This document shows, in pieces, positions 14,077 through 41,346 of a stretch of 41,346 bases of DNA (its first letter is position 1; each line of letters begins with the position of its first letter). Both the position numbers and the translations under genes were made by a program. Source of the DNA: a virus. The notes under the pieces are model-generated. The model ran no database searches, was not told the DNA's origin, and saw nothing but the letters and a program-made list of their open reading frames with translations. The DNA lies in UHGV virus genome UHGV-0007810. One strand, written 5' to 3'.

Positions 14077-14153
14077 TGGCGTGGCATGCAGGATTCGAAC
14101 CTGCGACCAACCGCTTAGAAGGCGGTTGCTCTGTCCAACTGAGCTAATGCCAC
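14077..14153 (-). tRNA. tRNA-Arg (anticodon UCU)
   Basis: Reverse complement folds as a cloverleaf: acceptor GTGGCAT/ATGCCAC, D-stem GCTC/GAGC, anticodon stem ACCGC/GCGGT with loop CTTCTAA (anticodon TCT), T-arm GCAGG-TTCGAAT-CCTGC, discriminator G and CCA. Confidence 0.9.
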
Positions 14154-19358: not shown

Positions 19359-19682
19359 ATGGAACTCGTAAACCTCAAAACCGGCACTGACAGCTACCAG
19401 GATGAGAGCGGAGAAACCAGAACTCGCGATGAATACCCGTGGGGGCTGTGCATCACTCTTAATAACGACACATTGAATAAGCTGAAGGCGCAACCTCAGG
19501 GCGTCGGAACAGAAGTGATGATAACTGCAAAGGCTGTTATTCGAGGCCTATCTGCCAGAGAAACTGACGATGGTGTTAATCGCAGCGCCGATCTGCAGAT
19601 CACTGATATGGCGATCGCTCCTGTTTCCGGGGATGTAGAAAAATCAGCGGCTGAAACCCTGTACGGCAATGGGGGTGAGTAA
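19359..19682 (+). CDS. Hypothetical virion-module protein
   Basis: About 107 aa; AGGAG Shine-Dalgarno 6 nt upstream of ATG 19359. Confidence 0.5.
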   Translation: MELVNLKTGTDSYQDESGETRTRDEYPWGLCITLNNDTLNKLKAQPQGVGTEVMITAKAVIRGLSARETDDGVNRSADLQITDMAIAPVSGDVEKSAAETLYGNGGE

Positions 19683-20287
19683 TGGCCTCTGTAGTAGAGA
19701 TCTGCAATCGTGCGCTGTCCAATATTGGCAATAGCCGCAGCATTAACAGCCTGACGGAAGCCAGTAAGGAAGCGGGGGAATGTTCGCTGCACTTTGAGGC
19801 CTGCCGTGATGCTGTGCTTTCTGATTTTGACTGGAACTTTGCTACCAAACGCGTGGCGCTTGCAGATACGAGCAATCCACCGCCTGACTGGGAATATGCG
19901 TATCAGTACCCGTCAGATTGTCTGCGCATTACTGAAATTATGCTTCCTGGTGTACGCAATCCAACAGCAGCAATGCGCGTTCAGTACGAAGTTGGTGCAG
20001 ACACCAACGGAACAGGAAAGTTGATCTACACAGACCAGCCTCAGGCATGGCTCAAGTATGTCTCTCGCGTTACAGATGTAAACATGTTTGATGCCATTTT
20101 TATGGAGGCGCTGGCCTGGCGTCTTGCGGCAGCCATTAACATGGCGCTGACTGGGAATGCGGATCTCGGTACATTTGCTCTCAATATGTACAATCGCGTG
20201 ATTCTTAGTGCTGGCTCGCATAGCCAGAATGAATCACAGGAACCACAGCCACCGGTTGATGAGTTTACCATTGCGAGGTTGTCCTGA
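19682..20287 (+). CDS. Tail tube / adaptor protein (T7 gp11-position)
   Basis: 201 aa; ATG overlaps the upstream stop; assignment by position and size only. Confidence 0.45.
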   Translation: MASVVEICNRALSNIGNSRSINSLTEASKEAGECSLHFEACRDAVLSDFDWNFATKRVALADTSNPPPDWEYAYQYPSDCLRITEIMLPGVRNPTAAMRVQYEVGADTNGTGKLIYTDQPQAWLKYVSRVTDVNMFDAIFMEALAWRLAAAINMALTGNADLGTFALNMYNRVILSAGSHSQNESQEPQPPVDEFTIARLS

Positions 20288-22758
20288 TGGCTATCAGTTG
20301 GATCCAGCCCAGCTTTGCCGGTGGTGAGATTGGACCGTCGTTGTACGGGCGTATTGACATGGCGAAGTACCAGGTGGCATTGCGCAAGTGCGATAACTTT
20401 ATCGTGCGGCAGTATGGCGGCGTTGAGAATCGACCTGGTACGCGTTTTGTCGGTGCCGCCAAATACCCAAATCGGAAATGCCGTCTGATCCCGTTCCAGT
20501 TCTCGACGGTTCAGACCTATGCTCTGGAGTTCGGACACCTGTACATGCGCGTTATCAAAGATGGTGCGTTGGTGCTGAACAGCAGCAATGTTATTTATGA
20601 AATTGCCACGCCATATACTGAAGCCGATCTGTTCCGAATTAAATTCACGCAAAGCGCCGACGTGCTTACGCTGGTTCATCCGGCATACCCGCCGAAAGAG
20701 TTGCGTCGCTATGCGCATGACAACTGGCAACTGGTTGATGTGGTAACGAAGAACGGGCCATTTGAAGATATCAATATTGACGAGTCAGTGACGGTTTATG
20801 CCAGCGCCAGCACCGGGACAATTACGTTAACGGCAAGCGCCTCTATTTTTGGCGCGGAGCAGGTAGGCAAATTGTTCTATCTGGAACAGCCTGCAGTGGA
20901 TTCTGTGCCGGTATGGGAAACCAGTAAGAGTACGTCGATTGGCGATATTCGCCGTGCAGACAGTAACTACTATCGCGCCGTTACAGCAGGCAAAACAGGT
21001 ACTTTGCGCCCTTCGCATACAGAAGGCACATCATGGGATGGCTGGGGCGGATCCGGTGATGATGATACCGGCATTGAGTGGGAGTATCTGCACAGTGGTT
21101 TTGGCATTGCCCGTATCTCTGCTGCAAATGGAACTACTGCAACTGCCGAGGTGATTTCCTATATCCCTTCGCAGGTAGTTGGCGAGGATAATGCCAGCTA
21201 TAAATGGGCTAAATATGCCTGGAACAGTATTAACGGTTATCCTGGCACTGTTGTTTATTATCAACAACGCCTTTACTTCGCCGCATCGACTGCGTTCCCT
21301 CAGACTATCTGGGCCAGCCGTACCGGGGATTATAAGGATTTTGGCAAAAGCAATCCTACGCAGGATGACGACAGAATTATCTACACCTATGCCGGGCGTC
21401 AGGTTAATGAGATCCGTCACCTGATTGATGTTGGTTCGCTGGTGGCGCTGACTTCCGGAGGTGAGTACGTCATCACTGGCGACCAGAACAAAGTGCTTAC
21501 CCCATCATCATTTGCATTCAGCTCTCAGGGATCAAATGGCTCGAGCAATGTCCCACCAATTGCCGTGGCGAATATTGCTCTGTTCGTCCAGGAGAAAGGC
21601 AGTGTTGTCCGTGATCTGGCCTACTCATTCGATGTTGACGGCTATCAGGGGAACGACCTGACCATCCTTGCCAATCATCTTTTTCAGAAGCACAGCATTG
21701 TTGACTGGTGCTTCTCGATTGTCCCTTACTCCAGCGCCTTCTGCATTCGTGATGACGGTAAATTACTGGTGATGACCTATTTGCGTGATCAGCAGGTTTT
21801 TGCATGGGCACCACAATCCAGTACCGGAAAATATGAAAGTACATGCAGTATCAGCGAAGGCAATGAAGATGCGGTGTATTTCGTCGTTAACCGAACCGTT
21901 AACGGGCAAACAGTGAGATACATCGAGCGACTGTCCAGCCGTTTATTTACCAGCGATGAAGATGCTTTCTTTGTTGATTCTGGCCTTAGCTATGATGGAA
22001 GAAATACGTCTGACAGAACGATGATCATCACTGGTGGTTCTGGCGAATGGGATTACCGCGCGGAATATACAATCAGTGTTTCTGGTGGTGCGTACTTCAC
22101 CAGTAGTGATGTCGGTGCTCAACTACAGTTCCCTTATACCGGAACTGTTCCTGATACTGGCGATGAAGTGTCAAAAGAATTACGTTGCGACATCATTTCT
22201 GTAACCAGCAATACCGCTGTAGTGGTTCGTGCTAACAGGAACGTCCCGCCATCCCTCAGGAATGTGGCCACCACGAACTGGCAGATGGCGCGCCGGACAT
22301 TTGGAGGCCTGTCTCATCTTGAAGGCCAGACCGTAAACATTCTCTCTGATGCGAACGTGGAACCACAGAAAGTAGTTTCCGGAGGTGCCGTCACGCTGGA
22401 ATCTCCGGGGGCTGTAGTGCACATCGGCCTGCCAATAACTGCTGAATTCGAAACACTGGATATCAACATTCACGGACAGGAAACGCTGCTGGACAAAAAA
22501 CAGGTGATCCCATCCGTTACTCTGGTTGTGAATGCCAGTCGCGGCATCTGGGCGACTACGCCTGGCGGTAAATGGTACGAATATCCACAGCGTGAATTCG
22601 AGTTCTACGATGATCCTGTTGATGATGCTACCGGAAAAGTAGAAGTGAAACTGGACAGTAACTGGGGCAAAAACGGACGTGTAAGAATCCGTCAGCTTGA
22701 CCCGTTGCCGCTGTCTGTTCTTGCCGTTATTCCTCGCCTTACTGTTGGGGGATTCTGA
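20287..22758 (+). CDS. Large tail tube / nozzle-like structural protein (T7 gp12-position)
   Basis: 823 aa; translationally coupled to flanking genes; assignment by position and size only. Confidence 0.5.
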   Translation: MAISWIQPSFAGGEIGPSLYGRIDMAKYQVALRKCDNFIVRQYGGVENRPGTRFVGAAKYPNRKCRLIPFQFSTVQTYALEFGHLYMRVIKDGALVLNSSNVIYEIATPYTEADLFRIKFTQSADVLTLVHPAYPPKELRRYAHDNWQLVDVVTKNGPFEDINIDESVTVYASASTGTITLTASASIFGAEQVGKLFYLEQPAVDSVPVWETSKSTSIGDIRRADSNYYRAVTAGKTGTLRPSHTEGTSWDGWGGSGDDDTGIEWEYLHSGFGIARISAANGTTATAEVISYIPSQVVGEDNASYKWAKYAWNSINGYPGTVVYYQQRLYFAASTAFPQTIWASRTGDYKDFGKSNPTQDDDRIIYTYAGRQVNEIRHLIDVGSLVALTSGGEYVITGDQNKVLTPSSFAFSSQGSNGSSNVPPIAVANIALFVQEKGSVVRDLAYSFDVDGYQGNDLTILANHLFQKHSIVDWCFSIVPYSSAFCIRDDGKLLVMTYLRDQQVFAWAPQSSTGKYESTCSISEGNEDAVYFVVNRTVNGQTVRYIERLSSRLFTSDEDAFFVDSGLSYDGRNTSDRTMIITGGSGEWDYRAEYTISVSGGAYFTSSDVGAQLQFPYTGTVPDTGDEVSKELRCDIISVTSNTAVVVRANRNVPPSLRNVATTNWQMARRTFGGLSHLEGQTVNILSDANVEPQKVVSGGAVTLESPGAVVHIGLPITAEFETLDINIHGQETLLDKKQVIPSVTLVVNASRGIWATTPGGKWYEYPQREFEFYDDPVDDATGKVEVKLDSNWGKNGRVRIRQLDPLPLSVLAVIPRLTVGGF

Positions 22759-23222
22759 TGATCGACGTTCAAATTATTCCCGCTACAGAAGAGCATCTTC
22801 AGATGATTTTGCCGGATGTTCGTCAGGCTGATATTGACGAACTGTATGCGGTATCGCTGATGACTACCGAAGATGCGCTGCGTGTTGGTCTTCGCACTGC
22901 GACTATGGCCTGGTCAGGATTTGCGAACGGAGAACTGGTAACCATGTTTGGCGTATCTCCGGCGTCAATGATCGGTGGCAATGGTACGCCCTGGCTGGTA
23001 GGAACCAGCCGTATTGAAAAATATCAGAAGACATTTCTTCGCCACTGCCGCCCTGTATTGCAGCAGATGCTGGCAGTTTATCCGCGCCTGGAAAACTACG
23101 TCGACGAGCGAAATCATGTTGCCAAAGCATGGCTGCACTGGCTTGGATTCAGGCTTGAAGAAGCCGCGCCTTATGGTGCTCTTGGTCTTAATTTCCACAG
23201 ATTTCACATGGAGAGAAAATAA
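22758..23222 (+). CDS. Hypothetical virion protein
   Basis: 154 aa; overlapping start/stop with its neighbours. Confidence 0.5.
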   Translation: MIDVQIIPATEEHLQMILPDVRQADIDELYAVSLMTTEDALRVGLRTATMAWSGFANGELVTMFGVSPASMIGGNGTPWLVGTSRIEKYQKTFLRHCRPVLQQMLAVYPRLENYVDERNHVAKAWLHWLGFRLEEAAPYGALGLNFHRFHMERK

Positions 23223-23767
23223 TGTGCGATCCGGTTATTGCTGGTGGCGCAATGCTCGCCATGAGTGGCATTCAGGCATACACCCAGTACCAACAGGGAA
23301 AGTATGCCTCGAAGGTTGCAGAAGCGAACGCAGATATAGCCACTGCTCAGGCAAATGATGCAATAAACAGAGGTAACGCTGAAGCTGAGCAACGGCGCAG
23401 AGAGACCCGACAGCGGCTTGGTACACAGGCGGCGACAATGGGGGCTACCGGCGCTGATTTATCTACAGGTAACGCGCTGGATATATTTGACGACACTGCC
23501 CAGTTTGGCGCTCTTGATTCGCTGACGACGGTGAATAACGCGCAACGCGAGGCTTACGGTTATCAGGTTCAGGCTGCCAACTATAAAGCAGAAGCCAGTT
23601 CAGCCCGTAAACAGGGGAATGTGGGAGCAGCAACAACATTGCTCACTGCGCCTCTGAAGGCATACGGTGCGTACCAGATGTTTGGTGGGACGTGGAGTCC
23701 GTTTACTCAAAGCACTCCTGCGCCAATCGGGGCAGCAGCAGGAACCAGATTACCCGGAGGATTATAA
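23222..23767 (+). CDS. Internal virion / ejection protein (T7 gp14-like)
   Basis: 181 aa; N-terminus MCDPVIAGGAMLAMSGIQAY resembles the T7 gp14 N-terminus as recalled; Ala/Gln-rich. Confidence 0.55.
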   Translation: MCDPVIAGGAMLAMSGIQAYTQYQQGKYASKVAEANADIATAQANDAINRGNAEAEQRRRETRQRLGTQAATMGATGADLSTGNALDIFDDTAQFGALDSLTTVNNAQREAYGYQVQAANYKAEASSARKQGNVGAATTLLTAPLKAYGAYQMFGGTWSPFTQSTPAPIGAAAGTRLPGGL

Positions 23768-26280
23768 TGCCAGTCGTACCAACAGTATCCGGACGTCAGG
23801 TTGAGAGCCGTGGAGTTCAGTCAGCAGGCTTGCAGACGTTTTCTCAGCCAGGTATTGGTGATGCTTTTGTTCTGGCAGGGGCAGAGACTATTGATGTTTT
23901 TGGTCAGGCAAAACAGCGTGCCAATATCGCTCTGGCTCAGGAGGCATCTCTTAACCTCAGTCAGATAAGCAGCGATCTGCTGAATAACCCTGAAACAGGG
24001 TTGCTTAACCTGAAAGGGAAAAATGCTATTGGAAAAGGCCATGAGTATACGCAGCAGTTTGATGCTCAGGTCGAACAACTGGCTATGTCGCTGCCGGATG
24101 AACAGGCTCGTAATACTTTCATGCAGCAGGCGCAGCAGCAGCGCATTCAGTTCACTACGCAGGCCGGGCGGCACGAGATAGGGCAAATAAACGCCTACGA
24201 AGAAGGCCAGTTTCAGGCTACGCTGCTGAACAATGGTAAAAATGCCGCAGCATTGTATGGCGACAACGCCGCATACGTATTGGCTAATAAGCAAACTTTC
24301 CAGCAAATTGAGGATTACGGCATTGCGCATGGCTGGAGCGACGAGCAAATCCAGGCCAAGAAAGTCGAGTTTAAAGAGAAGGTTGCTGATGCCGCATTGT
24401 CCCAGTGGTCGGCAAACAATGCGACCGCATTCATCCAAAGTAATGGCGAGTTAAGTGATACTGCTGCTGGAGCTCGCCGTGCTGTAGCAGATAGTGACTC
24501 TTCCGAGCGTGCCCGTGGCATACGCAACAATAACCCAGGAAATCTCGAATACAGCAAAACTAATCCGTGGGTAGGCCAGACCGGTGATGATGGTCGATTT
24601 GCTAAATTCGAAACACCTGAACACGGGATTCGTGCATTAGGGCGAAACCTGATGTCGTATCAGAGGCAGGGTATTGATACCGTCAGCGAGATAATTAATC
24701 GCTGGGCACCGCCTACTGATAAAAATGACACTATGTCGTATATCAAAGCAGTGTGCGAACAACTTGGCGTTTCTGCTGATGAGCCTCTCGATGCATCTAA
24801 TCCTGATACCCTGAAGGCGCTTTGTGCAGCCATTATCCATCATGAGAACGGTAGCCAGCCATACAGTGATCAGCAGTTAACTGCTGGTGTCAGTGCAGCA
24901 CTTGGTTTATCAACAATTCCAACCAACACCAAACGCTATACCGGTAATGCAGCATTCGATGCGGCATCTCCTGAGGCGCAGGCAAGTTTTATGCGACAGG
25001 CGGATCAACTGCGTCGGCAGCAGCAGGCTGAATATAAAACGATGATTGACAGCCAGGTTCGCGATGCGACAGCTGCGTATATGCGTGGCGTTGAATTTCC
25101 TAACCCACCTGGTGAGGCTGATTTTATTGCAGCTTATGGAGTCAGAGAAGGAAACCTGCGATATACCGAGTTCAGAAATACGCAAATCGCCGGACAGTAT
25201 ATAGGCTCTTTCCGCAACATGCCGACAAGCAGCATTACAGCATATGTTGAGCAATTACGCCCGGATACTGGTGAGACAGGGGAGGGTTATGCGGCACGAG
25301 CCGCTCTTTATGACAACGTTGTGTCGGCTGCAAGTCAGGTGATAAAGCAGCGACAGGCTGATCCTGTACAGTTCTCTCTTGCCGCCGGACAGGCAAAGCC
25401 TATCGACATGAGCAATAAGGATAACTTTGGACAGAGCGTTGCCTTGCGTGCTGCTCAGGTCAGTGACCTTGCTAAGTCATATGGCACTCCACTGACGTTC
25501 TTTTCCAAAGACGAGGCCAATCAGATCGGTGTTTTCTTTCGTGATGCGCCCGTTTCCCAACAGGCAGCATATCTCGATACCATCAGGCAGAGCACTGGTG
25601 GTGGGCAGGTGTATATGTCAGCACTACAGCAGATCAGTGCCAACGCTCCATCTGCTGCCGTTGCCGGGATACTGATGGATAAGCCAGGTGGTATTTTGGC
25701 AGAAAAAAACTGGTTTAATCCGGATGTTTCCGTGTCTCCTGAAACCGCTGCGCAGACAATTCTTGCTGGCGCGGCGGCTCGTAAAGGTACTGATGACGCG
25801 AAAGGTATTCCGATGCCTAAAGATGCTGATCTCCGCCTTGAGTTTTCTGACATGGTGAAGGATGCATTTGCTGGTGATGCTCAGGGGGCATCAATGGCAT
25901 ACGAGATCGCAAAGGACTATTACGCAGGTGTGATGGCGAAAAAAGGCGTGGTATCAGGCGAAATTGACAATGATATCTGGAAACAGGCTGTTAACGTAGC
26001 TACAGGTGGCGTGCATGACTATAACGGAATGGGGAATGTTCTTTTGCCGTGGGGAATGTCTGCAGAGCAATTCGATAAGCAGGTTAATCAGGCTTGGAAT
26101 GAACAAGTTGTTGGCACAGGGATAAAAACACCGCCTGGTCAGTATGGTTTGCAAAGTTACGGCGATAGTCAGTACCTGGTGAAACTTGGTACTGGTTATC
26201 TGCTAAAAGATGATGGTTCTCCCGTTGTTCTTGATCTGACACAGAAGCGTCAGAGATTCTCCGGAGATATTCCGCAATGA
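23767..26280 (+). CDS. Internal virion / ejection protein with a conserved-looking central block
   Basis: About 837 aa from ATG 23767 (TAATG overlap; the ORF-track start 23692 overlaps the previous gene); central motif RGIRNNNPGNLEY...WVGQTGDDGRFAKF. Confidence 0.6.
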   Translation: MPVVPTVSGRQVESRGVQSAGLQTFSQPGIGDAFVLAGAETIDVFGQAKQRANIALAQEASLNLSQISSDLLNNPETGLLNLKGKNAIGKGHEYTQQFDAQVEQLAMSLPDEQARNTFMQQAQQQRIQFTTQAGRHEIGQINAYEEGQFQATLLNNGKNAAALYGDNAAYVLANKQTFQQIEDYGIAHGWSDEQIQAKKVEFKEKVADAALSQWSANNATAFIQSNGELSDTAAGARRAVADSDSSERARGIRNNNPGNLEYSKTNPWVGQTGDDGRFAKFETPEHGIRALGRNLMSYQRQGIDTVSEIINRWAPPTDKNDTMSYIKAVCEQLGVSADEPLDASNPDTLKALCAAIIHHENGSQPYSDQQLTAGVSAALGLSTIPTNTKRYTGNAAFDAASPEAQASFMRQADQLRRQQQAEYKTMIDSQVRDATAAYMRGVEFPNPPGEADFIAAYGVREGNLRYTEFRNTQIAGQYIGSFRNMPTSSITAYVEQLRPDTGETGEGYAARAALYDNVVSAASQVIKQRQADPVQFSLAAGQAKPIDMSNKDNFGQSVALRAAQVSDLAKSYGTPLTFFSKDEANQIGVFFRDAPVSQQAAYLDTIRQSTGGGQVYMSALQQISANAPSAAVAGILMDKPGGILAEKNWFNPDVSVSPETAAQTILAGAAARKGTDDAKGIPMPKDADLRLEFSDMVKDAFAGDAQGASMAYEIAKDYYAGVMAKKGVVSGEIDNDIWKQAVNVATGGVHDYNGMGNVLLPWGMSAEQFDKQVNQAWNEQVVGTGIKTPPGQYGLQSYGDSQYLVKLGTGYLLKDDGSPVVLDLTQKRQRFSGDIPQ

Positions 26281-28079
26281 GTTACTTTGGCCTTAATCCA
26301 GTAAACCAGAATCAGCAGCTTGACGAAGCAGCATCAAATCCAGCGGGCTTTAACAGCGATGTTGGTTTTTTCGACAATGCTGTAGGAGCGGCATTGTCTG
26401 GTTTGTACTCCGGGCTGGTGGCAAAGCCAGACCAGTTGCTATGGGCAGGAATGGATAAAATCGTATCCCCGATTGCTCAGTTTGTTAACGAAAACACCTC
26501 GTTCAATGATACTTCAGTTTCATACATTGCCGAGCAGAGAAAACTAGCAGAGCAGCAGGTTAAGCGGCTGACGCCTGATGCGGCGACAACCGGAACCGCC
26601 GGGCAGGTCCTTTATGGGTTGTTCGATATGGGCGGGCAGGCTGTTGTCGGTACAACGCTCGGTGGTCCGGTCGGAGGTGCTGCGGCGGTAACTTCGCTAC
26701 AGGGTTTTTCTGAGTTTGAACGGCTGACAGCACAGGGTGTTGATTTCAGGACGGCGCAGGAAGCGGGATTAGTGCAGGGTATTACTGCTGGTGCCGGAAC
26801 ACTGATCCCTATGAGCCTCGGGTTACGTGCTGGTGGTGCGCTGGCGGAAGGTGTGGCGGCTCAGCTTGCGCGGACGGGTGAAAGTTCAGTGCGACGCGCC
26901 GCAGCAACAGCAGTACGTGCAACGCCAGATATTGCCTATGCCGCAGGTACAAATATTGCGTTCGGTATGGCACAGCGTGGGCTTACTGCAAAAACGCTTC
27001 GTGATGGTGGCTATAGCGAAATGGCTAACCAGTATGATGTGTTGGATCGACAGGCAATTGCTATTGATGCTGTTCTTGGGGTGGCGTTTGGTGGTGTCGG
27101 CAGATTTATTAACTCTCGCGGCGAGTCTACAAACGCACCAAATTTTTCACCAGTTGATGTCGATGCTGCACTGGCGGCGAATGCCGCTCATCATGCTGAA
27201 ATTGATATTGCGCCCGGCGTGCCGATCAACGTGCTTTCGCGCAATTCTCACATTCAGGCTCTGCGAAAAGCTATGTCTGATGTTAGCCAGGGGAGACCTG
27301 TAGACGTTGCCAGCATTGTTGAGTCTGCATCTTTCAGTGAAATTCCTGGGCGCAAGAGTCTGCTGTCTCAGGCAGTTAATGAGGCTCTGTCATCTGTAGA
27401 TGATGGAGTAACGGCGCGCGCTATAGAAAATCGGTTGCTTGAAGAACAGGCCGCGCAGCTTTTGCCGCGTGGAGATAGACAGGTTTACCAGTCTGAAATC
27501 GCTAATAGCCAACGAATTATTGAAAATCTCACTAAACAGCGTGCACAAATTCTTGCAGAAGAGCCAACCGGTAGCGGTAAAGCTTTGTCTCGTGCTCGAT
27601 CAGATAAACAGGCCAGACTTCGCGATATTGACCAACGAATCCGGCAGGCACAAGAACGCCTGGAATTTTCCCGTAACGCGTTGGCACCGCATGAGCCTGG
27701 CGGTCAGTTTTTTGAAGCTCGAGCAGAACTGGCACGGAGACAGCAGGCTGAAAGTGAACTTAATGCTCAGGCTGTTTCATTCTATAAAACAGCAGAGGTC
27801 AGGACGCCAGACGAAGTAGCTCCTTTTGAGCCTGATAAAATATTGCAACAGGCAGAACAAAAAATGATGGCGGATCAGGCAGGAGATATTGATCTGCGCA
27901 TAGCTGAAGACTCGCTGCTTGAATCACCTGACATGATAATCACCGTGCTGGATGATGATGGTAATCCACAATCGCGCAGCGCGCGTGAAGTACTGGATGA
28001 AGCGAACAGGGAAAGTGAGCAGGCAATACAGGATTCCAGCCTGTTTGATGTCGCTGTGGCGTGTTTCTTGAGAGGTTAA
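26277..28079 (+). CDS. Internal virion / ejection protein
   Basis: 600 aa; ATGA overlap with the upstream gene; Ala/Gly-rich N-terminal half, coiled-coil C-terminal half. Confidence 0.55.
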   Translation: MSYFGLNPVNQNQQLDEAASNPAGFNSDVGFFDNAVGAALSGLYSGLVAKPDQLLWAGMDKIVSPIAQFVNENTSFNDTSVSYIAEQRKLAEQQVKRLTPDAATTGTAGQVLYGLFDMGGQAVVGTTLGGPVGGAAAVTSLQGFSEFERLTAQGVDFRTAQEAGLVQGITAGAGTLIPMSLGLRAGGALAEGVAAQLARTGESSVRRAAATAVRATPDIAYAAGTNIAFGMAQRGLTAKTLRDGGYSEMANQYDVLDRQAIAIDAVLGVAFGGVGRFINSRGESTNAPNFSPVDVDAALAANAAHHAEIDIAPGVPINVLSRNSHIQALRKAMSDVSQGRPVDVASIVESASFSEIPGRKSLLSQAVNEALSSVDDGVTARAIENRLLEEQAAQLLPRGDRQVYQSEIANSQRIIENLTKQRAQILAEEPTGSGKALSRARSDKQARLRDIDQRIRQAQERLEFSRNALAPHEPGGQFFEARAELARRQQAESELNAQAVSFYKTAEVRTPDEVAPFEPDKILQQAEQKMMADQAGDIDLRIAEDSLLESPDMIITVLDDDGNPQSRSAREVLDEANRESEQAIQDSSLFDVAVACFLRG

Positions 28080-28084
28080 ATTAA

Positions 28085-30559
28085 ATGAGACAGGAATGTA
28101 TACAAGCGGTCCAGCAGGCGGCGCAGCGCACGTTAACGGCGCGAGAAATACAGAACATTGAAGACCGCATTTATCGAAATATGCGCTCCATTGCTCGTGA
28201 TGACCCGATGTCGTGGCGACAACTTTCCGAATCAGAACGGTTGTATCGTGCAGCACAATTGGCATCTGAAGAATTACAGCGAGAAGCGGCATTAAAGAAA
28301 CGTCGTGTGGCTCTCACTATAGCCGCACGTCAGAGATTGGATAAATTTATCAATAGCTATCAAGGGGCTGATGGGAAACTTGGCGCTCTTAACCGTACTA
28401 TTGCTTTTAATGCAGACGGTAAATCGAATTTCCTCTCTGTTGAGTCCAGAACAAAAGCCACTCGTGATTATGCATTGAGTCAATTGCAGGAGGCATTCGA
28501 AGCAGTTGATCCTCGCTTTTTTGGCCTGTTTGAAGATGAAGCGGGCGTGCGTGACCTGGTATATGAAATGCGAGGGCAAAATACTGGCAATGCTAAAGCA
28601 AGAAAAGGTGCTAAGGCGTGGAGAGAAGTGACAGATCTACTCCGCCGCCGGTTTAATGATGCTGGTGGGGACATTGGCTATCTCGAAAACTGGGGGATCC
28701 CTCAACATCATTCTATGGAAAAGGTTGGGGCGGTATCAAAAGATAAATGGGTTAGCGATGTTATAGGTAAGCTGGATCGCAAATATTATACCCGAGCCGA
28801 TGGACAACTGATGAACGATGCCGAGTTGTCTGCATTTCTTGGAGAGGCTTATAACACGATCGCTACTGGTGGGCTGAATAAGCTTACTGATACCGGAATG
28901 CGAATTTCCGGCGCACGTGCTAACCGTGGTAATGCATCACGACAGATACATTTCAAAGATGCAGATTCCTATCTGCAATATCAGCAACTTTATGGCGATC
29001 GCTCTCTATGGGAAATCATGGTCGGTCACCTGGAAGGTATCAGTAAAGATATTGCTCTGGTGGAAACATATGGTCCAAACCCCGATCATGTTTTCCGCTC
29101 CCTTCTTGATCAGGTTAAGGCAGAAACGGCAACAGCTAACCCGAGTAAAACCGGTAGCGTCGAGCGTCTGGCGAACAAAACAGAGAACTTGTACAACTTT
29201 ATTTCCGGAAAAACACAGCCTGTAGCGAATCCCCACATCGCGCGATGGTCTGACAATATCCGCAACTGGCTGGTTGCCAGCAGACTCGGATCCGCGTTGC
29301 TGTCATCGTTCTCTGATCTTGGAACCATGTATCTGTCTGCGAAGGTTACCAACCTTCCAATGAACCAGTTATTTCGCAACCAGCTTGAAGCTATGGACCC
29401 AACGAACCGTACTGAGCTTGCGCGGGCGCGCCGCGCTGGCCTGGCGATGGAATCTCTACTTGGCAGCGTTAACCGCTGGGCGATGGATAATATGGGGCCG
29501 TCTGTGTCTCGTTGGGCGGCAACGGCGGTAATGCGTGCCAGTGGGCTTACAGCATGGTCAGATGCGCACAAGCGCGCCTATGGCGTAACCATGATGGGAA
29601 GCCTGGGAGAAGTAGTGTCACGGACACCAGACCTTCGTAGCCTCGATGACTCTGATTTTCGTATCCTGAAAAGTAAAGGGATTACTGACACAGACTGGAG
29701 CGTATGGAAGCTGGCGCAACAGGAGGACTGGGGGAACGGTAATAATACGATGCTGACACCGGAAAGCATTATGCGTATCCCTGATTCAGCAGTTAAACAT
29801 CTTGGTGAGCCTGAACGCGTGAAATTTGAGGCAATGCGTAAACTGCTCGGTGCCGTAACTGAAGAAGTTGATATGGCTGTTATTACACCGGGCGCACGTG
29901 AGCAGATGTTCGTAGGGTCTGGTCTTCAGCGTGGAACATGGAAAGGTGAATTAACGAGAAGTGTTTTCCTGTTTAAATCGTTCCCTATCTCGGTTGTTAT
30001 GCGTCACTGGTCACGCGCTATGGGTATGCCGTCTGCTGGTGGGCGTGCAGCATATATAGCAACGTTTTTAGCAAGCACAACCATGCTTGGTGCTCTTTCC
30101 ATGCAGATTACTGATCTTATTAATGGGAGAAATCCAAAGGAAATGACCGGTGACCACATGGTTAAATTCTGGATAAATGCATTTTTAAAAGGTGGCGGGG
30201 CTGGGTTGTACGGTGATTTTCTTTTCTCTGACCACACTAGGTACGGGAGCGGCGCGCTGGCGTCGATGCTTGGCCCGGTAGCTGGTCTGGTTGATGATGT
30301 AGTGAAGATTACTCAGGGCATACCGTTAAATGCTGTGGAAGGGAAGAGTGAGCAGACTGGTGGTGATCTGGTGAAGCTGGGGAAAGGTTTGATGCCTGGT
30401 GCGAATCTCTGGTACTTGAAGGCGGCTCTCGATCACATGATCTTTAACCAGATGCAGGAGTATTTTTCACCAGGTTATTTGCGTAAAATGGAGCAACGTT
30501 CGAAGAAAGAGTTTAACCAGACATACTGGTGGCGACCACAGGATGTCACTCCGCAATAA
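28085..30559 (+). CDS. Internal virion / ejection protein (T7 gp16-position)
   Basis: 824 aa; last and largest of the ejection-protein block; hydrophobic stretch near residues 640-680. Confidence 0.55.
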   Translation: MRQECIQAVQQAAQRTLTAREIQNIEDRIYRNMRSIARDDPMSWRQLSESERLYRAAQLASEELQREAALKKRRVALTIAARQRLDKFINSYQGADGKLGALNRTIAFNADGKSNFLSVESRTKATRDYALSQLQEAFEAVDPRFFGLFEDEAGVRDLVYEMRGQNTGNAKARKGAKAWREVTDLLRRRFNDAGGDIGYLENWGIPQHHSMEKVGAVSKDKWVSDVIGKLDRKYYTRADGQLMNDAELSAFLGEAYNTIATGGLNKLTDTGMRISGARANRGNASRQIHFKDADSYLQYQQLYGDRSLWEIMVGHLEGISKDIALVETYGPNPDHVFRSLLDQVKAETATANPSKTGSVERLANKTENLYNFISGKTQPVANPHIARWSDNIRNWLVASRLGSALLSSFSDLGTMYLSAKVTNLPMNQLFRNQLEAMDPTNRTELARARRAGLAMESLLGSVNRWAMDNMGPSVSRWAATAVMRASGLTAWSDAHKRAYGVTMMGSLGEVVSRTPDLRSLDDSDFRILKSKGITDTDWSVWKLAQQEDWGNGNNTMLTPESIMRIPDSAVKHLGEPERVKFEAMRKLLGAVTEEVDMAVITPGAREQMFVGSGLQRGTWKGELTRSVFLFKSFPISVVMRHWSRAMGMPSAGGRAAYIATFLASTTMLGALSMQITDLINGRNPKEMTGDHMVKFWINAFLKGGGAGLYGDFLFSDHTRYGSGALASMLGPVAGLVDDVVKITQGIPLNAVEGKSEQTGGDLVKLGKGLMPGANLWYLKAALDHMIFNQMQEYFSPGYLRKMEQRSKKEFNQTYWWRPQDVTPQ

Positions 30560-37536: not shown

Positions 37537-37571
37537 AGCTGACAGTTTAAGTGGATCTGTATATACAAAAT

Positions 37572-37988
37572 ATGGTGCACATTATGTCAGCTCAACTAAC
37601 TAGTGAATCTTTAAATCAATGGCTTAGCATGAGTTCTCTTGCTGCGGTTATAGCAGGAGTTCCTCCTGAGGTTGCTTTAGGGTCTTTGGCTGGTGCGGTA
37701 ATTTTTGTTACCTCTGCGGTAGAGTACCCAATTCATCGTCGCGTACTCTTATCGATGCTTAGCTTTCTCTGCGGCCTTCTTTTTTATAAACCAGCAGCAT
37801 CAATTCTTATCGGCATAGCCAGCCTGATCCCTACTATCACGCAGGACTCTTTTGAAAAAGGGATTGTTTTCTCTGCTGGCGCATTCGTGTCAGCAATTGT
37901 TGCTGTGCGTATTGGTATATGGCTCTACCACCGTTCCGATAATCCACGCGAGTTAATTCCGGGGAGAAAAGACGATGGTAACGCATGA
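37572..37988 (+). CDS. Holin (putative, multi-TM), possible dual start
   Basis: 3-4 hydrophobic helices; two in-frame ATGs separated by three codons (M-V-H-I-M), reminiscent of holin/antiholin dual-start motifs; start uncertain (ORF track gives GTG 37551). Confidence 0.5.
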   Translation: MVHIMSAQLTSESLNQWLSMSSLAAVIAGVPPEVALGSLAGAVIFVTSAVEYPIHRRVLLSMLSFLCGLLFYKPAASILIGIASLIPTITQDSFEKGIVFSAGAFVSAIVAVRIGIWLYHRSDNPRELIPGRKDDGNA

Positions 37989-38283
37989 GTTTTTTTTGCT
38001 TATCACCAATGCAGTTATTTGTACTGGCATAGCAATTCGCGTTGTCACATTCCGGCGTAACGGATCTCAACATCGAAGATGGGGGGGGTGGCTTGCTTAT
38101 TTCCTGATTGTTGCTGCGGCCAGTATTCCGGTTCGTGTTGCCTATGCAATCTGGTTCCGCACGCCAATGGCTGTGGATTTATCTGAGGTCATTATCAACG
38201 CTGTCATGCTCGCTGCGGTTATTAAAACGCGCGGTAACGTCGTTCAAATTTTCAAAGTATCGAGGTCTAAACATGGAGATTAA
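37975..38283 (+). CDS. Second small membrane protein of the lysis cassette (holin/antiholin-like)
   Basis: 102 aa with 2-3 TM segments; GGAG Shine-Dalgarno; its end overlaps the endolysin start; contains a G8 tract. Confidence 0.45.
38081..38088. repeat. G8 homopolymer inside the lysis-cassette membrane-protein gene
   Basis: Eight consecutive G, in frame. Confidence 0.9.
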
Positions 38284-38902
38284 ACAATTCCAGCGAGCTG
38301 CTGGTATCAGCGAGGCGCTGGCTGCACGCTGGTTCTCGTATATAACTTCTGCGATGAGAGAGTTTGGTATCAGCAAACCAGAAGATCAGGCTATGTTTAT
38401 TGCTCAGGTCGGGCATGAGTCTGGAGGCTTCACCAGGTTGCAGGAGAATTTCAATTACAGCGTCACCGGACTGGCTAACTTCGTTCGTGCCGGTCGTCTC
38501 ACTCAGGGACAGGCCAACGCACTGGGTCGCCGTGCTGGTGAACCGCCATTACCACTCGAGCGCCAGCGTGCGATCGCAAATCTGGTGTACAGCAAACGCA
38601 TGGGGAACAATGCCCCCGGCGATGGCTGGAATTACCGAGGTCGCGGACTTATCCAGATTACCGGTTTGAATAACTATCGTGATTGCGGAAACGGCCTGAA
38701 AGTGGACCTGCTGGAGAATCCTGAACTGTTGGCGCAGGACGAATACGCGGCTCGTAGCGCGGCGTGGTTCTTCTCCAGCAAAGGCTGCATGAAGTATACC
38801 GGAGATATTGCACGTGTAACTCTGCTTATCAATGGTGGCCGGAACGGCATTGATGACCGGCGCGCGCGATACATCACTGCCAGTAAGGTGCTGGCGGTAT
38901 GA
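38273..38902 (+). CDS. Endolysin, glycoside hydrolase family 19 (chitinase-like)
   Basis: About 209 aa; motifs [13 protein letters not shown] and [11 protein letters not shown] are characteristic of phage GH19 endolysins; no N-terminal signal-anchor. Confidence 0.8.
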
Positions 38903-39381
38903 TCTGGGCATTCGCAAAAGCATACTGGAAACAGTTGGTTATCATGGCGATGTTTGCTGTTCTGGTCATATCAGGAGTTGTAGCCTGGAATGCACACGGC
39001 AGTCGTCAGTACGATGCCGGGTATGCACAGGCGAAAGAAGACCGCAAAACCGAAGATGAGAGAATTCGTCAGCACTACGAACAGGAGAAATCGATCAATG
39101 AACGTGAAGCGCAGCAGAGGATCGACCAGGCGCGCAATGATGCTCTTGATGCTGCCGCTCGCGCTGGCCGGTTGCAGCAACAGCTCGTTGCCATCCGTGA
39201 GCAGCTCAGGCACTATAACGCCATTGTCGGCGCTGGGTCGTCAGCCGCAGACACCGGAGTTTTGCTTGCCGACGTGTTCAGCAAATCTCTCGAGAGAAAT
39301 AGACAACTGGCAGAGTATGCTGACCGGGCAGCCGAAGCCGGAAGAGTCTGCGAAAAACAGTACGACACCCTGACCAGATAG
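38899..39381 (+). CDS. i-spanin (Rz-like)
   Basis: 160 aa; N-terminal TM helix then a charged coiled-coil domain; ATGA overlap with the endolysin stop. Confidence 0.7.
39098..39373 (+). CDS. o-spanin (Rz1-like lipoprotein) embedded in the i-spanin gene in the +1 frame
   Basis: ATG 39098 with AGGAGA upstream; signal peptide with lipobox LALAGC; Pro/Ser-rich mature part; wholly nested. Confidence 0.6.
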   Translation: MNVKRSRGSTRRAMMLLMLPLALAGCSNSSLPSVSSSGTITPLSALGRQPQTPEFCLPTCSANLSREIDNWQSMLTGQPKPEESAKNSTTP

Positions 39382-39600: not shown

Positions 39601-40140
39601 TTAATTAAACCAGCTGTCCGATTTGTTCTCTTCTGCTTTGCCCACGCTTTTCATCAGATCGCGACCGCCCTCAGTCATATTCCTGTTTGCGTCAGCTTCA
39701 GATTGCACCACATCGGTTTGCGCAGCTTTGTGCTTCAGTTCCTGATCGATAAATTCGTTTTCTCGCTTAACGCGGGCTTCTTCTTTCGCCAGCGCCAGTT
39801 TTTGTTTCTGAATCTCTAAGCTGCGTAGCTCATCTTCATAACTTTGATCGCGTTTTTTGTCCGCAGTGGCTTCGGCGTCCAGTTTATCCTGACGAGCTTT
39901 CTTATTTGCCGCTGCCGTTGCCGCTCTTTTGTTAGCGGCGGCCTGGGCGTTTGCGCGACGTTGCTTCTCTTGCTGGATTTCCCTGTTGCGCTCCGCGACC
40001 CATTCGTCATGCTGCCTTTGCTCTTCATTTTTACCTTGCTGTTCCGCTTCTGCGACAGCAGAGAGTTGATCCTGCAATGATGAGGCGATAGCCGGATAGC
40101 TTAAGGAGGTTAAGATGGCGCAAAGAAAAACTTTCTTCAT
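39601..40140 (-). CDS. Secreted coiled-coil protein (signal peptide)
   Basis: 179 aa; strong Shine-Dalgarno (AGGAGGAG); N-terminal signal peptide; K/E/Q/A-rich mature part. Confidence 0.6.
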   Translation of the reverse strand: MKKVFLCAILTSLSYPAIASSLQDQLSAVAEAEQQGKNEEQRQHDEWVAERNREIQQEKQRRANAQAAANKRAATAAANKKARQDKLDAEATADKKRDQSYEDELRSLEIQKQKLALAKEEARVKRENEFIDQELKHKAAQTDVVQSEADANRNMTEGGRDLMKSVGKAEENKSDSWFN

Positions 40141-40155
40141 GACTCCTCCTGATCA

Positions 40156-40674
40156 TTAGCTCTTTTCAGGACATTTCGTATTTGGCTGAATACGCGTTTC
40201 GTTATACGTCGTGGTAATAACAACGGCTAAACCTGTCGTAAACTGGCACTCTTTACCCACCTGGGTAGAGGTATACACTTTGGTGCCTTCCTTATACGTT
40301 AGAGAAACACCTTCCACTAAGGTTTTATCATTCACCATAGAACCCGCTGCCGCGCCAACAGCTCCGCCGCCAACTGCACCTGCCGTCGTTCCGGAATTGC
40401 TGCCAGACCCCACGTTGTGGCCGATTACACCGCCAGCGACTGCACCAATAAGCGCGCCGAAGGCTTGTGCGTTCCGTTTATTTTGGGAGTTGTCTACGGC
40501 AACTTTTGCGGGAAGAATGGAAATAATATTAACGGTTTTAGTTTCTTGTTTGGTATTCAGTTGATCGGTTTGATAAACATCGGCGGCATGATCATCAGCA
40601 TTTGACTGGCATCCTGCCAGAGTGAATGACGCTAACATTGCCACAGGCAGAAGACATTTTTTAAATTTCATCAC
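40156..40674 (-). CDS. Outer-membrane lipoprotein with glycine-zipper domain (YcfJ/SlyB-like)
   Basis: 172 aa; lipobox LAGC; GALIGAVAGGVIGHNVG glycine-zipper motif; AT-rich promoter region upstream (40680-40860). Confidence 0.65.
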   Translation of the reverse strand: MMKFKKCLLPVAMLASFTLAGCQSNADDHAADVYQTDQLNTKQETKTVNIISILPAKVAVDNSQNKRNAQAFGALIGAVAGGVIGHNVGSGSNSGTTAGAVGGGAVGAAAGSMVNDKTLVEGVSLTYKEGTKVYTSTQVGKECQFTTGLAVVITTTYNETRIQPNTKCPEKS

Positions 40675-41346
40675 TATTCCTTGTTATACACATTACTAAA
40701 AATAAGACATTTAAGATCATCAAAAGAAGAAAGTAAATGTATTGCGTATAAAGGAATAGATTAAATTTATTAAAATTCATGTGGGAAATAATTTATAAAA
40801 ATACATCATTAAAATATATGTATTAATTTTATATTTATTTCGCAGCCAAACAGGATAAACATCTGTCAGGACAAAGACGTAAAATTTAAGATGAAAGAAT
40901 ATCTGCCGCTTTGATAATCCCAAAGAGCAAAAGCATCCGACAGCGAGGTGCCGTTATGTTCTGTGAAAGTGGAGAAGGTAACCGCTAACGTTGTACCGGT
41001 GATTCGACGGAGAGTGTGGATTGCTGAGCTTCTTTTTTGCTCTGATGGTGCTGCCATGCACCGACGGACGAGTAGATAAAACGGCCAAAGAAGAAGATAA
41101 AGCTGATGAGCAGTACGATACGGGTCATGCGACTGTTAAATCGGTGTCGTTTTCGCATACTGGTTGCCTGACTCACAAAAGGTTCCTTGAAGTATGTCCC
41201 ACGCTGTGGACGGTACTTACATTAAGGCACAACAGGACAAAATGGTCAATTCTTCGTTATGTAAAAAAGCGTCAGTGGATACATATTTTAATGTTATGGA
41301 AGTTAATTTAATTATTTACAATGATGATGTAATAATGATGAATTAA

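What the first reader, a model, noticed from the sequence alone, without database searches (positions are those of the whole stretch)
23767..26280. Ejection protein with a conserved-looking central block that may be an enzymatic domain
Within this ~837-aa internal virion protein the segment RGIRNNNPGNLEYSKTNPWVGQTGDDGRFAKFETPEHGIRALGRNLMSYQRQ stands out as motif-like against a low-complexity Ala/Gln-rich background. Ejection proteins of podoviruses often carry cell-wall-degrading domains; I cannot assign this one to a known family from memory.
Basis: inference. Interest (0 to 1): 0.35.

Follow-up and report, generated by a model that had tools for sequence, protein, structure and literature searches.

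The report
Cell-wall-cutting domain in phage ejection protein
The conserved block is a known type of cell-wall (peptidoglycan) cutting enzyme, first characterised in the phage Enc34 endolysin, built into an internal virion protein of a phiV10/epsilon15-like E. coli prophage; this is ordinary for short-tailed phages, although this protein's activity has never been measured.

Summary
ORF 23767-26280 (+) encodes 837 aa, and the quoted motif is residues 250-301.

Residues about 247-386 are an Enc34-type (CDD PHA02564) peptidoglycan glycosidase domain:
- phmmer E 2.7e-17 to PDB 7q47, the Enc34 endolysin catalytic domain.
- phmmer E 3.8e-38 to the N-terminus of a Kayfunavirus (K1F-like) gp16 core protein, 9vvp.
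- AF2 model pLDDT 93, with 7q47 the only significant Foldseek hit (TM 0.84).
- The Enc34 signature Trp79/Tyr95/Glu131 maps to W313/Y325/E360. E360 is invariant in 31 full-length homologues down to 23% identity.

The window is a phiV10-like prophage (98.7% nt identity). The protein is phiV10 gp18 and the orthologue of epsilon15 gp15, which GenBank already calls a 'putative lytic transglycosylase'. It sits directly after a Pfam T7_gp14-family core gene, and the phage has its own holin/GH19 endolysin/spanin cassette elsewhere.

Relatives that share the flanking modules carry SLT or GH108 domains in the same central slot. This is domain displacement among wall-cutting enzymes.

The most likely role is local wall digestion during DNA ejection. 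It is already known in kind and of low interest. Bond specificity, catalysis and virion location remain untested for this protein.

The parts
23767..26280 (+). Whole gene: 837-aa virion protein. It is phiV10 gp18 and the orthologue of epsilon15 gp15.
   Evidence: Translation. 98.7% nt identity to phiV10 and about 75% to epsilon15. PHROG 992, full length.
23756..23760 (+). Shine-Dalgarno GGAGG, 6 nt upstream of the ATG. The ATG overlaps the upstream stop (TAATG).
   Evidence: Read from the sequence.
23767..24504 (+). N-module, aa 1-246: disordered conserved N-terminus (aa 1-42), a long-helix bundle (aa 37-226), then a disordered linker (aa 229-245).
   Evidence: AF2 full-length model. The module is shared at 44% identity with the TL-2011b orthologue, which carries an SLT domain after it. 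No PDB sequence relative.
24451..24501 (+). Inter-module linker, aa 229-245. This is the junction where domain swaps occur and where 935-aa alleles carry a 98-aa insertion.
   Evidence: pLDDT <50. Insertion mapped between residues 242 and 249. Similarity to TL-2011b ends at residue 248.
24505..24924 (+). Enc34-type (PHA02564) peptidoglycan glycosidase domain, aa 247-386.
   Evidence: phmmer to 9vvp_L (E 3.8e-38) and 7q47_A (E 2.7e-17). AF2 pLDDT 93. Foldseek TM 0.84 to 7q47.
24703..24705 (+). Trp313 codon, equivalent to Enc34 Trp79 (substrate-positioning aromatic).
   Evidence: Alignment mapping. The column is W or Y in homologues.
24739..24741 (+). Tyr325 codon, equivalent to Enc34 Tyr95.
   Evidence: At least 90% conserved.
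24844..24846 (+). Glu360 codon, the predicted catalytic glutamate, equivalent to Enc34 Glu131 (HENG motif).
   Evidence: Invariant in 31 full-length homologues and at least 90% conserved in 36 domain homologues.
24925..26277 (+). C-module, aa 387-837: mostly helical with small beta elements. It is the scaffold shared with relatives that carry SLT or GH108 in place of the Enc34-type domain.
   Evidence: AF2. 54 representatives match only this module, of which 28 have SLT, 15 GH108 and 1 both SLT and Transglycosylas. No PDB sequence relative.
23222..23767 (+). Upstream gene: 181-aa internal virion (core) protein of the T7 gp14 family.
   Evidence: Pfam PF24072 T7_gp14, 32.5 bits against a cut-off of 27. 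PHROG 418 'internal virion protein'. PGAP name 'virion core protein, T7 gp14 family'.
22758..23222 (+). 154-aa internal virion protein (epsilon15 gp13-like), in the T7 gene 13 position.
   Evidence: PHROG 308. Synteny.
26277..28079 (+). Downstream 600-aa protein (epsilon15 gp16-like), probably a further core/ejection component.
   Evidence: PHROG 1145, function unknown. Start overlaps the gene's stop. One weakly hydrophobic segment near aa 260.
28085..30559 (+). Downstream 824-aa virion structural protein (epsilon15 gp17-like).
   Evidence: PHROG 684 'virion structural protein'.
37551..39381 (+). Separate lysis cassette: two holins (37551-37988, 37975-38283), a GH19 endolysin (38273-38902), Rz (38899-39381) and embedded Rz1 (38990-39373). 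It shows that the domain under study is not the lysis endolysin.
   Evidence: PHROGs 198, 217 and 312. Pfam PF00182, 37.6 bits. ORF translations.

Best explanation
Residues about 247-386 form an Enc34-type (PHA02564) peptidoglycan glycosidase domain. [quoted passage not shown]

The domain is spliced, through a disordered linker, between two helical scaffold modules of an 837-aa virion protein. That protein occupies the T7 gene-15 position in the core/ejection-protein operon of a phiV10/epsilon15-like prophage.

Inferred mechanism: the protein is packaged in the virion. On infection it leaves through the portal and tail with the other ejection proteins. Its enzyme domain then cuts glycan strands locally in the periplasm, so that the trans-envelope DNA conduit can pass the murein layer. 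This is the role played by the SLT domain of T7 gp16 and the lysozyme domains of SP6/K1-5 gp15-like proteins.

Shown here: family membership, fold, conserved active-site signature and genomic context.
Inferred: catalysis by this protein, its bond specificity (N-acetylglucosaminidase is favoured by the data on family members), virion packaging and ejection.
For: Family and fold:
- phmmer hits to 7q47 (E 2.7e-17) and to the 9vvp gp16-like core protein (E 3.8e-38). Profile E-values are 1.4e-41 and 2.4e-53.
- AF2 domain model pLDDT 93, pTM 0.88.
- Foldseek finds only 7q47 as significant (E 4e-11, TM 0.84).

Active site:
- W313/Y325/E360 align to Enc34 W79/Y95/E131.
- E360 is invariant and Y325 at least 90% conserved in 31 homologues at 23-50% identity.

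Biochemistry of family members:
- Enc34 ORF39deltaC lyses outer-membrane-permeabilised E. coli, P. aeruginosa and H. alvei (PMC8943055).
- M4Lys without its transmembrane domain degrades purified peptidoglycan, and its LC-MS products lack GlcNAc (PMC7143992).

Domain displacement at the same slot:
- The syntenic phage TL-2011b has the same N-module followed by Pfam SLT at residues 263-342.
- Of 54 representatives sharing only the C-module, 28 have SLT and 15 have GH108, at about residues 233-383 where checked.
- BFVD structural neighbours of the whole model are 650-980-aa phage proteins named after GH108, SLT, tail lysozyme, LT_GEWL, NlpC/P60 or M23 domains.

Virion/ejection context:
- The upstream gene is Pfam T7_gp14.
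- Gene order and sizes parallel T7 genes 11-15.
- The same enzyme domain is the N-terminus of K1F-type gp16, annotated 'internal virion protein with endolysin domain'.
- The top PDB fold hits of the full-length model are T7 gp15 chains 7k5c_A and 6yt5_A (E 5.5e-4 and 1.1e-3, probability 0.99 and 0.98).

Not the lysis enzyme: a separate holin/GH19 endolysin/spanin cassette lies at 37551-39381, and the protein has no hydrophobic segment.
Against: - No activity, virion proteomics or mutant data for this protein or phiV10 gp18 were found in the searchable literature. The review of virion-associated lysins does not list it.
- The catalytic role of Glu131 in Enc34 is itself inferred from superposition, not mutagenesis.
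- The link to T7 gp15 is weak: TM 0.16-0.19 and no profile-profile signal (hhalign probability 0.2).
- From memory, not checked here (the paper is not held): Guichard et al. 2013 placed epsilon15 gp15 in the tail tube/hub rather than the internal core.
- Bond specificity is unresolved. The GenBank annotation of epsilon15 says lytic transglycosylase, while data on family members point to glucosaminidase.
Confidence: 0.78

Rival explanations
1. Same role, different chemistry. The domain is a lytic transglycosylase that produces 1,6-anhydroMurNAc, as the GenBank annotation of epsilon15 gp15 says, rather than a hydrolytic N-acetylglucosaminidase.
For: - AY150271.2 annotates gp15 as 'putative lytic transglycosylase' through HHpred to SltB 4anr.
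- Several K1F-like records call the homologous gp16 N-terminus a 'peptidoglycan lytic exotransglycosylase'.
- The Enc34 structure superposes its single catalytic Glu on that of the GH23 enzymes phiKZ gp144 and MltC.
- SLT domains occupy the same slot in relatives.
Against: - No Pfam SLT hit even at E<=1.
- No significant Foldseek hit to any SLT/GH23 structure.
- The closest structural relative of Enc34 reported is a GH73 glucosaminidase, and the helix order is permuted relative to GH23.
- M4Lys products lacked GlcNAc, which indicates glucosaminidase.
- GH108 muramidases also fill the slot, so the slot does not dictate the chemistry.
Confidence: 0.2
2. The domain is a catalytically silent relic. 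It serves only as a structural or peptidoglycan-binding spacer within a scaffold protein.
For: - No activity has been measured for any gp15-type carrier of this domain.
- In T7 the gp16 transglycosylase is dispensable under standard conditions (established knowledge, Moak & Molineux 2000, cited).
Against: - E360 is invariant and Y325, the RNNNPGN loop and HENG are near-invariant across homologues down to 23% identity. This is the pattern of a maintained active site.
- Alternative domains in the slot are bona fide enzyme families.
Confidence: 0.06
3. The protein is a fixed tail-hub or tail-tube component rather than an ejected internal core protein. The enzyme would then act from the tail tip after adsorption.
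For: - From memory: Guichard et al. 2013 (World J Virol 2:152) inferred from nonsense mutants that epsilon15 gp4, gp15 and gp17 form the central tube of the adsorption apparatus. A 2025 paper repeats this assignment.
- Sequence homology to T7 gp15 is undetectable.
Against: - epsilon15/phiV10 already encode T7 gp11-like and gp12-like adaptor and nozzle proteins just upstream.
- The immediately preceding gene is a T7_gp14-family core protein.
- The homologous enzyme domain in K1F-like phages sits on gp16, a core protein present as 4 chains in entry 9vvp.
- The best PDB fold hit is T7 gp15.
Confidence: 0.15
4. It is a second endolysin that acts from within at the end of the lytic cycle.
For: PHROGs 1044 and 873, which the protein matches, are labelled 'endolysin'. 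Many stand-alone homologues are endolysins of Chivirus and Seuratvirus phages.
Against: - It is embedded in an 837-aa protein in the virion-structure operon, 11 kb from the complete holin/GH19 endolysin/Rz/Rz1 cassette.
- It has no signal, SAR or transmembrane segment.
Confidence: 0.03

Closest known systems
Hafnia phage Enc34 ORF39 endolysin catalytic domain (PDB 7q47; CDD PHA02564) and Salmonella phage BSPM4 M4Lys
   Same: Homologous domain: about 36% identity over the fold alignment, TM 0.84, and the same W/Y/E signature. The family has demonstrated muralytic activity.
   Different: Those are about 25-kDa lysis-cassette endolysins with a C-terminal transmembrane domain. Here the domain is internal to an 837-aa virion protein, has no membrane segment, and lies outside the lysis cassette.
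gp16 (internal virion protein D) of K1F-like Kayfunavirus phages; PDB 9vvp 'Gp29', 1295 aa
   Same: The closest solved-structure sequence relative of the domain (E 3.8e-38; 50-56% identity to K1F-like gp16 in phage genomes). It is likewise a virion-internal ejection protein of an enterobacterial podovirus.
   Different: There the domain is at the extreme N-terminus of a gp16-type protein. Here it is central, in the protein at the gene-15 position. The rest of the two proteins is unrelated by sequence.
Salmonella phage epsilon15 gp15 / Escherichia phage phiV10 gp18 (Uetakevirus)
   Same: Direct orthologues: phiV10 at 98.7% nt identity, and epsilon15 at about 75% nt over the first 61% of the gene. 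Same operon.
   Different: Nothing of substance. The annotations differ: 'head protein', 'hypothetical structural protein', 'putative lytic transglycosylase', and 'hypothetical protein' in RefSeq E. coli genomes.
T7 gp16 N-terminal SLT domain; SP6 gp36 / K1-5 gp15-like lysozyme domains; phiKMV gp36
   Same: Works like them: a murein-cutting domain carried on a podovirus ejection protein. SLT and GH108 domains replace the Enc34-type domain in relatives of this very protein.
   Different: A different enzyme family (no Pfam SLT, GH108 or lysozyme hit) and a different position in the carrier protein.
PM2 structural protein P5 and its homologues in Vinavirales and Microviridae
   Same: Same domain family. 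phiV10's own annotation cites similarity to PM2 P5, an AF2 overlay of P5 on 7q47 has been published, and tblastn finds hits in Vibrio PM2-like phages and Microviridae.
   Different: Those are small proteins of tailless phages.

Membership tests
Enc34-type / PHA02564 peptidoglycan hydrolase domain | Significant sequence similarity to a characterised member | tested here: met
   phmmer E 2.7e-17 to 7q47_A over query residues 249-367. Profile E 1.4e-41.
Enc34-type / PHA02564 peptidoglycan hydrolase domain | Compact, mostly helical fold resembling the alpha-lobe of lysozyme | tested here: met
   AF2 pLDDT 93 with five core helices plus a short beta-hairpin in the alpha1-alpha2 loop region. Foldseek TM 0.84, E 4e-11 to 7q47, with no other significant hit. 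This is a predicted structure, not an experimental one.
Enc34-type / PHA02564 peptidoglycan hydrolase domain | Conserved Trp79/Tyr95/Glu131 active-site signature | tested here: met
   W313, Y325 and E360 align to it, with a constant SEQRES offset of +1. E360 is invariant in alignment A3, and Y325 is at least 90% conserved.
Enc34-type / PHA02564 peptidoglycan hydrolase domain | Muralytic activity on Gram-negative peptidoglycan, and its bond specificity | not testable with these tools
   Shown only for Enc34 ORF39deltaC and M4Lys without its transmembrane domain.
SLT / GH23 lytic transglycosylase (the epsilon15 GenBank annotation) | Match to the SLT model (PF01464) | tested here: not met
   No Pfam family at E<=1. 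The TL-2011b orthologue does hit SLT at 30.2 bits.
SLT / GH23 lytic transglycosylase (the epsilon15 GenBank annotation) | Significant fold match to a GH23 structure | tested here: not met
T7 gp15-type internal virion protein C (periplasmic tunnel) | Gene lies immediately downstream of a T7 gp14-family gene, after the adaptor and nozzle genes | tested here: met
   PF24072 on 23222-23767. Order and sizes compared with T7 genes 11-16.
T7 gp15-type internal virion protein C (periplasmic tunnel) | Sequence homology to T7 gp15 | tested here: not met
   hhalign of A3 against T7+K1F gp15: probability 0.2, E 0.28. A profile search of PDB sequences finds no gp15.
T7 gp15-type internal virion protein C (periplasmic tunnel) | Fold similarity to T7 gp15 | tested here: inconclusive
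   The top two Foldseek PDB hits are gp15 chains 7k5c_A and 6yt5_A (E 5.5e-4 and 1.1e-3, probability 0.99 and 0.98), but TM is 0.16-0.19 and rmsd 28 A.
T7 gp15-type internal virion protein C (periplasmic tunnel) | Packaged inside the capsid and ejected at infection | not testable with these tools
   Needs virion mass spectrometry, cryo-EM or cryo-ET.
Lysis-cassette endolysin | Encoded with holin and spanins, small and soluble or SAR/TM-anchored | tested here: not met
   The lysis cassette with a GH19 endolysin is at 37551-39381. This protein is 837 aa, sits in the structural operon, and has no hydrophobic segment.

The most novel reading that the evidence does not exclude
This would be a virion-borne N-acetylglucosaminidase, a bond specificity not among the lysozymes and lytic transglycosylases listed for ejection proteins of Gram-negative podoviruses. 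It would sit in a hot-swappable 'enzyme slot' of a T7 gp15-like tunnel protein. The disordered linker before that slot (aa 229-245) also accepts a 98-aa module of unknown function, which the 935-aa alleles that dominate the hit list carry and which elsewhere is found fused to Peptidase_M15_3.
Probability: 0.3. Interest if true: 0.35.

Novelty: already known. Interest (0 to 1): 0.15.

Why it matters
Practical value is modest.
- The result gives a correct, specific family name to a protein that RefSeq calls 'hypothetical' in about 8% of complete E. coli genomes (413 of 5426) and that Pfam and NCBIfam do not cover.
- It corrects the SLT-type label on epsilon15 gp15.
- It documents a clean case of non-homologous displacement of wall-cutting domains within one ejection-protein scaffold.

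It does not open a new question. Murein-cutting domains on podovirus ejection proteins are textbook, and this domain family has a crystal structure and activity data.

Tried and rejected
Searches that found nothing:
- Pfam and NCBIfam scans of the protein gave nothing relevant. NCBIfam on six neighbouring genes gave nothing.
- PDB sequence searches with the N-module and the C-module alone found no relatives.
- A profile-profile comparison with T7/K1F gp15 gave no signal.

Identifying PDB 9vvp:
- The PDB code occurs in no held paper.
- The cyanophage A4 'gp29' lead was false, because that protein is 380 aa.
- The entry was identified indirectly, by tblastn to Kayfunavirus gp16 and by its length of 1295 aa, equal to K1F gp16.

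Papers not available: the primary epsilon15 papers (Guichard 2013, Chang 2010, Jiang 2006) are not held. Statements about virion location from them rest on memory.

Unreliable source: Table 1 of the ejection-protein review (PMC8954989) lists 'Epsilon 15 gp11 229 aa / gp12 499 aa / gp13 708 aa'. These sizes do not match AY150271.2, so its epsilon15 assignments were not used.

Readings considered and rejected:
- Lysis endolysin: rejected because of the separate lysis cassette.
- Low-complexity background: rejected on the entropy figures.
- Alternative GTG start at 23692: rejected because of the SD-ATG arrangement and orthologue starts.
Full report
**1. The observation**

ORF 23767-26280 (+) is open and encodes 837 aa. 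Three things support the ATG at 23767 over the upstream in-frame GTG at 23692: it overlaps the stop of the preceding gene (TAATG), it is preceded by GGAGG at 23756-23760, and orthologues begin with the same MPVVPTVSGRQ.

The quoted motif is residues 250-301, nt 24514-24669. It is far beyond chance:
- The domain alone finds 2269 homologues at E<=1e-3 in the 5.8-billion-protein collection.
- The whole protein finds 12,649 cluster representatives at E<=1e-3.
- RGIRNNNPGN, GIRAL, RWAPP and HENG are near-invariant in alignment.

The flanks are Ala/Gln-rich but not low-complexity, at 3.94-4.02 bits against 4.12 for the domain. AlphaFold2 predicts them to be folded helical modules.

**2. Where the window comes from**

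The gene is 98.7-99.1% identical in DNA to phiV10 and its close relatives, and about 75% identical to Salmonella phage epsilon15 (genus Uetakevirus). The protein is phiV10 gp18 and the orthologue of epsilon15 gp15.

The right end of the window (39601-41346) is E. coli core chromosome carrying yfgI, yfgH and yfgG, present in all 5426 complete genomes. The window is therefore a prophage. The gene occurs in 413 of 5426 complete E. coli genomes, where PGAP calls it 'hypothetical protein'.

**3. What the central block is**

Pfam and NCBIfam have no model for it. A sequence search of the PDB gives two strong hits confined to residues 249-398:
- 9vvp chain L, 'Gp29', 1295 aa, E 3.8e-38, matching its residues 3-146.
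- 7q47, the catalytic domain of the Hafnia phage Enc34 endolysin, E 2.7e-17.

A profile of 31 full-length homologues raises these to 2.4e-53 and 1.4e-41.

An AlphaFold2 model of residues 247-386, built on a 36-sequence alignment, has mean pLDDT 93 and pTM 0.88. Foldseek against the PDB finds 7q47 as the only significant match (E 4e-11, TM 0.84). The next hit has E 1.4.

[quoted passage not shown] It reports muralytic activity against outer-membrane-permeabilised E. coli, P. aeruginosa and H. alvei, and a putative catalytic Glu131 flanked by Trp79 and Tyr95. These three residues align with W313, Y325 and E360 of the window protein, with a constant +1 SEQRES offset. E360 is invariant and Y325 at least 90% conserved in 31 full-length homologues at 23-50% identity.

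A second family member, M4Lys of phage BSPM4, degrades purified peptidoglycan. Its LC-MS products lack GlcNAc, which suggests N-acetylglucosaminidase activity (PMC7143992). The Enc34 authors reach the same conclusion.

**4. Identity of 9vvp**

No held paper cites the entry. A tblastn search with its aligned N-terminus hits Kayfunavirus (K1F-like, T7 family) phages at 95-99% identity. The features there are annotated 'internal virion protein D', 'internal virion protein with endolysin domain' or 'peptidoglycan lytic exotransglycosylase'. K1F gene 16 encodes exactly 1295 aa.

So in K1F-like phages the Enc34-type domain takes the place that the SLT domain has at the N-terminus of T7 gp16.

In all, 747 phage records carry the domain, in these contexts:
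- Kayfunavirus gp16.
- Uetakevirus gp15.
- Chivirus and Seuratvirus endolysins.
- Pseudomonas JBD/D3112-like 'structural' proteins.
- PM2 P5-like proteins of Vibrio phages.
- Microviridae.

**5. Architecture of the whole protein**

A full-length AF2 model (31-sequence alignment, pLDDT 84) shows these parts:

| Residues | Predicted structure |
|---|---|
| 1-42 | Disordered N-terminus |
| 37-226 | Long-helix N-module |
| 229-245 | Disordered linker |
| 247-386 | Enzyme domain |
| 387-827 | Mostly helical C-module |

The linker is a recombination joint, on three lines of evidence:

(a) In the syntenic phage TL-2011b the positional orthologue (905 aa) shares residues 1-248 at 44% identity. It then carries a Pfam SLT domain at 263-342, and the rest is unalignable.

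(b) Of 54 cluster representatives that match only the C-module, 28 carry SLT and 15 carry GH108 (one of the SLT carriers also matches Transglycosylas). Where positions were checked, the domains lie at about 233-383.

(c) The E. coli prophage alleles that fill the full-length hit list are mostly 935 aa, because a 98-aa module is inserted between residues 242 and 249.

BFVD structural neighbours of the whole model (88 at E<=1e-3) are 650-980-aa phage proteins. UniProt names them after GH108, SLT, tail lysozyme, LT_GEWL, NlpC/P60 or M23 domains.

The central position is thus a slot filled interchangeably by cell-wall-cleaving enzymes. This is strong contextual evidence that the Enc34-type block does the same job here.

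**6. Context in the virion operon**

The operon runs as follows:

| Coordinates | Product |
|---|---|
| 19682-20287 | Adaptor-like tail protein |
| 20287-22758 | Nozzle-like tail protein |
| 22758-23222 | Internal virion protein |
| 23222-23767 | Internal virion protein; Pfam T7_gp14, 32.5 bits against a cut-off of 27 |
| 23767-26280 | This gene |
| 26277-28079 | 600-aa protein |
| 28085-30559 | 824-aa protein |

The order and sizes of the first five parallel T7 genes 11-15. The best PDB fold hits of the full-length model are T7 gp15 chains from the ejectosome structures 7k5c and 6yt5 (E 5.5e-4 and 1.1e-3, probability 0.99 and 0.98). However, TM is only 0.16-0.19, and a profile-profile comparison with T7/K1F gp15 shows nothing. 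I therefore call this protein a positional analogue of gp15, and possibly a remote homologue, but not a demonstrated family member.

The phage has its own complete lysis cassette: two holins, a GH19 endolysin at 38273-38902, Rz and Rz1. The 837-aa protein has no hydrophobic segment. It is therefore not the lysis enzyme.

**7. Mechanism**

Best-supported reading (confidence about 0.78): a virion-packaged ejection protein whose central Enc34-type glycosidase cuts the murein locally, so that the DNA conduit can cross the periplasm. This is functionally equivalent to T7 gp16-N and to the lysozyme domains on the gp15-like proteins of SP6, K1-5 and K1E.

Shown here: family, predicted fold, conserved catalytic signature, slot displacement and operon context.
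Inferred: catalysis, specificity, packaging and ejection.

Open alternatives:
- Lytic-transglycosylase chemistry, as the epsilon15 GenBank record says through HHpred to SltB. Pfam SLT and Foldseek do not support SLT membership.
- A fixed tail-hub location. This is Guichard et al. 2013, recalled from memory and echoed; the paper is not held.
- A silent domain, which is unlikely given the invariant Glu.
- A second endolysin, which is rejected.

**8. Novelty**

The protein is a near-identical copy of a sequenced phage protein, and its epsilon15 orthologue is already annotated as a putative murein-cleaving enzyme. The domain family has a crystal structure and activity data. Its use on podovirus core proteins is annotated in many K1F-like genomes.

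What this analysis adds:
- The correct family assignment: Enc34-type rather than SLT.
- The catalytic residues.
- The modular slot picture.

Rating: already known in kind; low interest (0.15).

**9. Caveats**

- Both structures are predictions.
- The catalytic role of the Glu is inferred by superposition even in Enc34.
- The review PMC8954989 lists epsilon15 ejection proteins with sizes that do not match the epsilon15 genome, so it was not relied on.

Noticed in passing
Related proteins, e.g. P0123 residues 243-346. The corresponding site in the window is aa 242-249, nt about 24490-24513.: The E. coli prophage alleles that fill the full-length hit list are mostly 935 aa. They carry a 98-aa insertion ([43 protein letters not shown]...HEQQDQYYVKGG) exactly in the disordered linker before the enzyme domain. 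It has no Pfam family. Homologues are mostly stand-alone 100-140-aa metagenomic proteins, and three are fused to Peptidase_M15_3 (PF08291). Its function is unknown.
   Followed up: partly
window 23767-23820 (aa 1-18): The first 18 residues (MPVVPTVSGRQVESRGVQ) are identical to those of the TL-2011b orthologue, although the N-module is only 44% identical overall. AF2 predicts residues 1-42 to be disordered. This may be a docking peptide for the portal or a core partner.
   Followed up: no
window 39601-41346: The right end of the window is E. coli core chromosome (yfgI, yfgH, yfgG; found in 5426 of 5426 complete genomes). The window is therefore an integrated phiV10-like prophage, with its junction just after the Rz/Rz1 genes.
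   Followed up: partly
window 14077-14153 (-): A tRNA-Arg (anticodon TCT) is encoded inside the prophage, between the early/replication genes and the structural genes.
   Followed up: no
window 38273-38902 (+): The dedicated endolysin is GH19-type (PF00182, 37.6 bits). Its ATG lies 11 nt inside the end of the second holin gene. The mechanical ORF list shows it as a longer TTG ORF starting at 38108.
   Followed up: partly
Literature: PMC8954989, Table 1: The review's 'Epsilon 15' ejection proteins (gp11 229 aa, gp12 499 aa, gp13 708 aa) do not match the epsilon15 genome record, where gp11 is 201 aa, gp12 825 aa and gp13 154 aa. The row probably belongs to a different, P22-like phage.
   Followed up: partly
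L004 1521-3992 (E. coli SCU-116 prophage): In this otherwise intact-looking related prophage, the nozzle-like tail gene upstream is annotated as a pseudogene with an internal stop. Some of the chromosomal copies are therefore probably defective.
   Followed up: no
E. coli JNE12-007, hit H123; TL-2011b, L003 6001-8718: Alleles of the same gene that carry an SLT domain instead of the Enc34-type domain circulate in E. coli prophages. Exchange of the enzyme module therefore happens within a single host species.
   Followed up: partly
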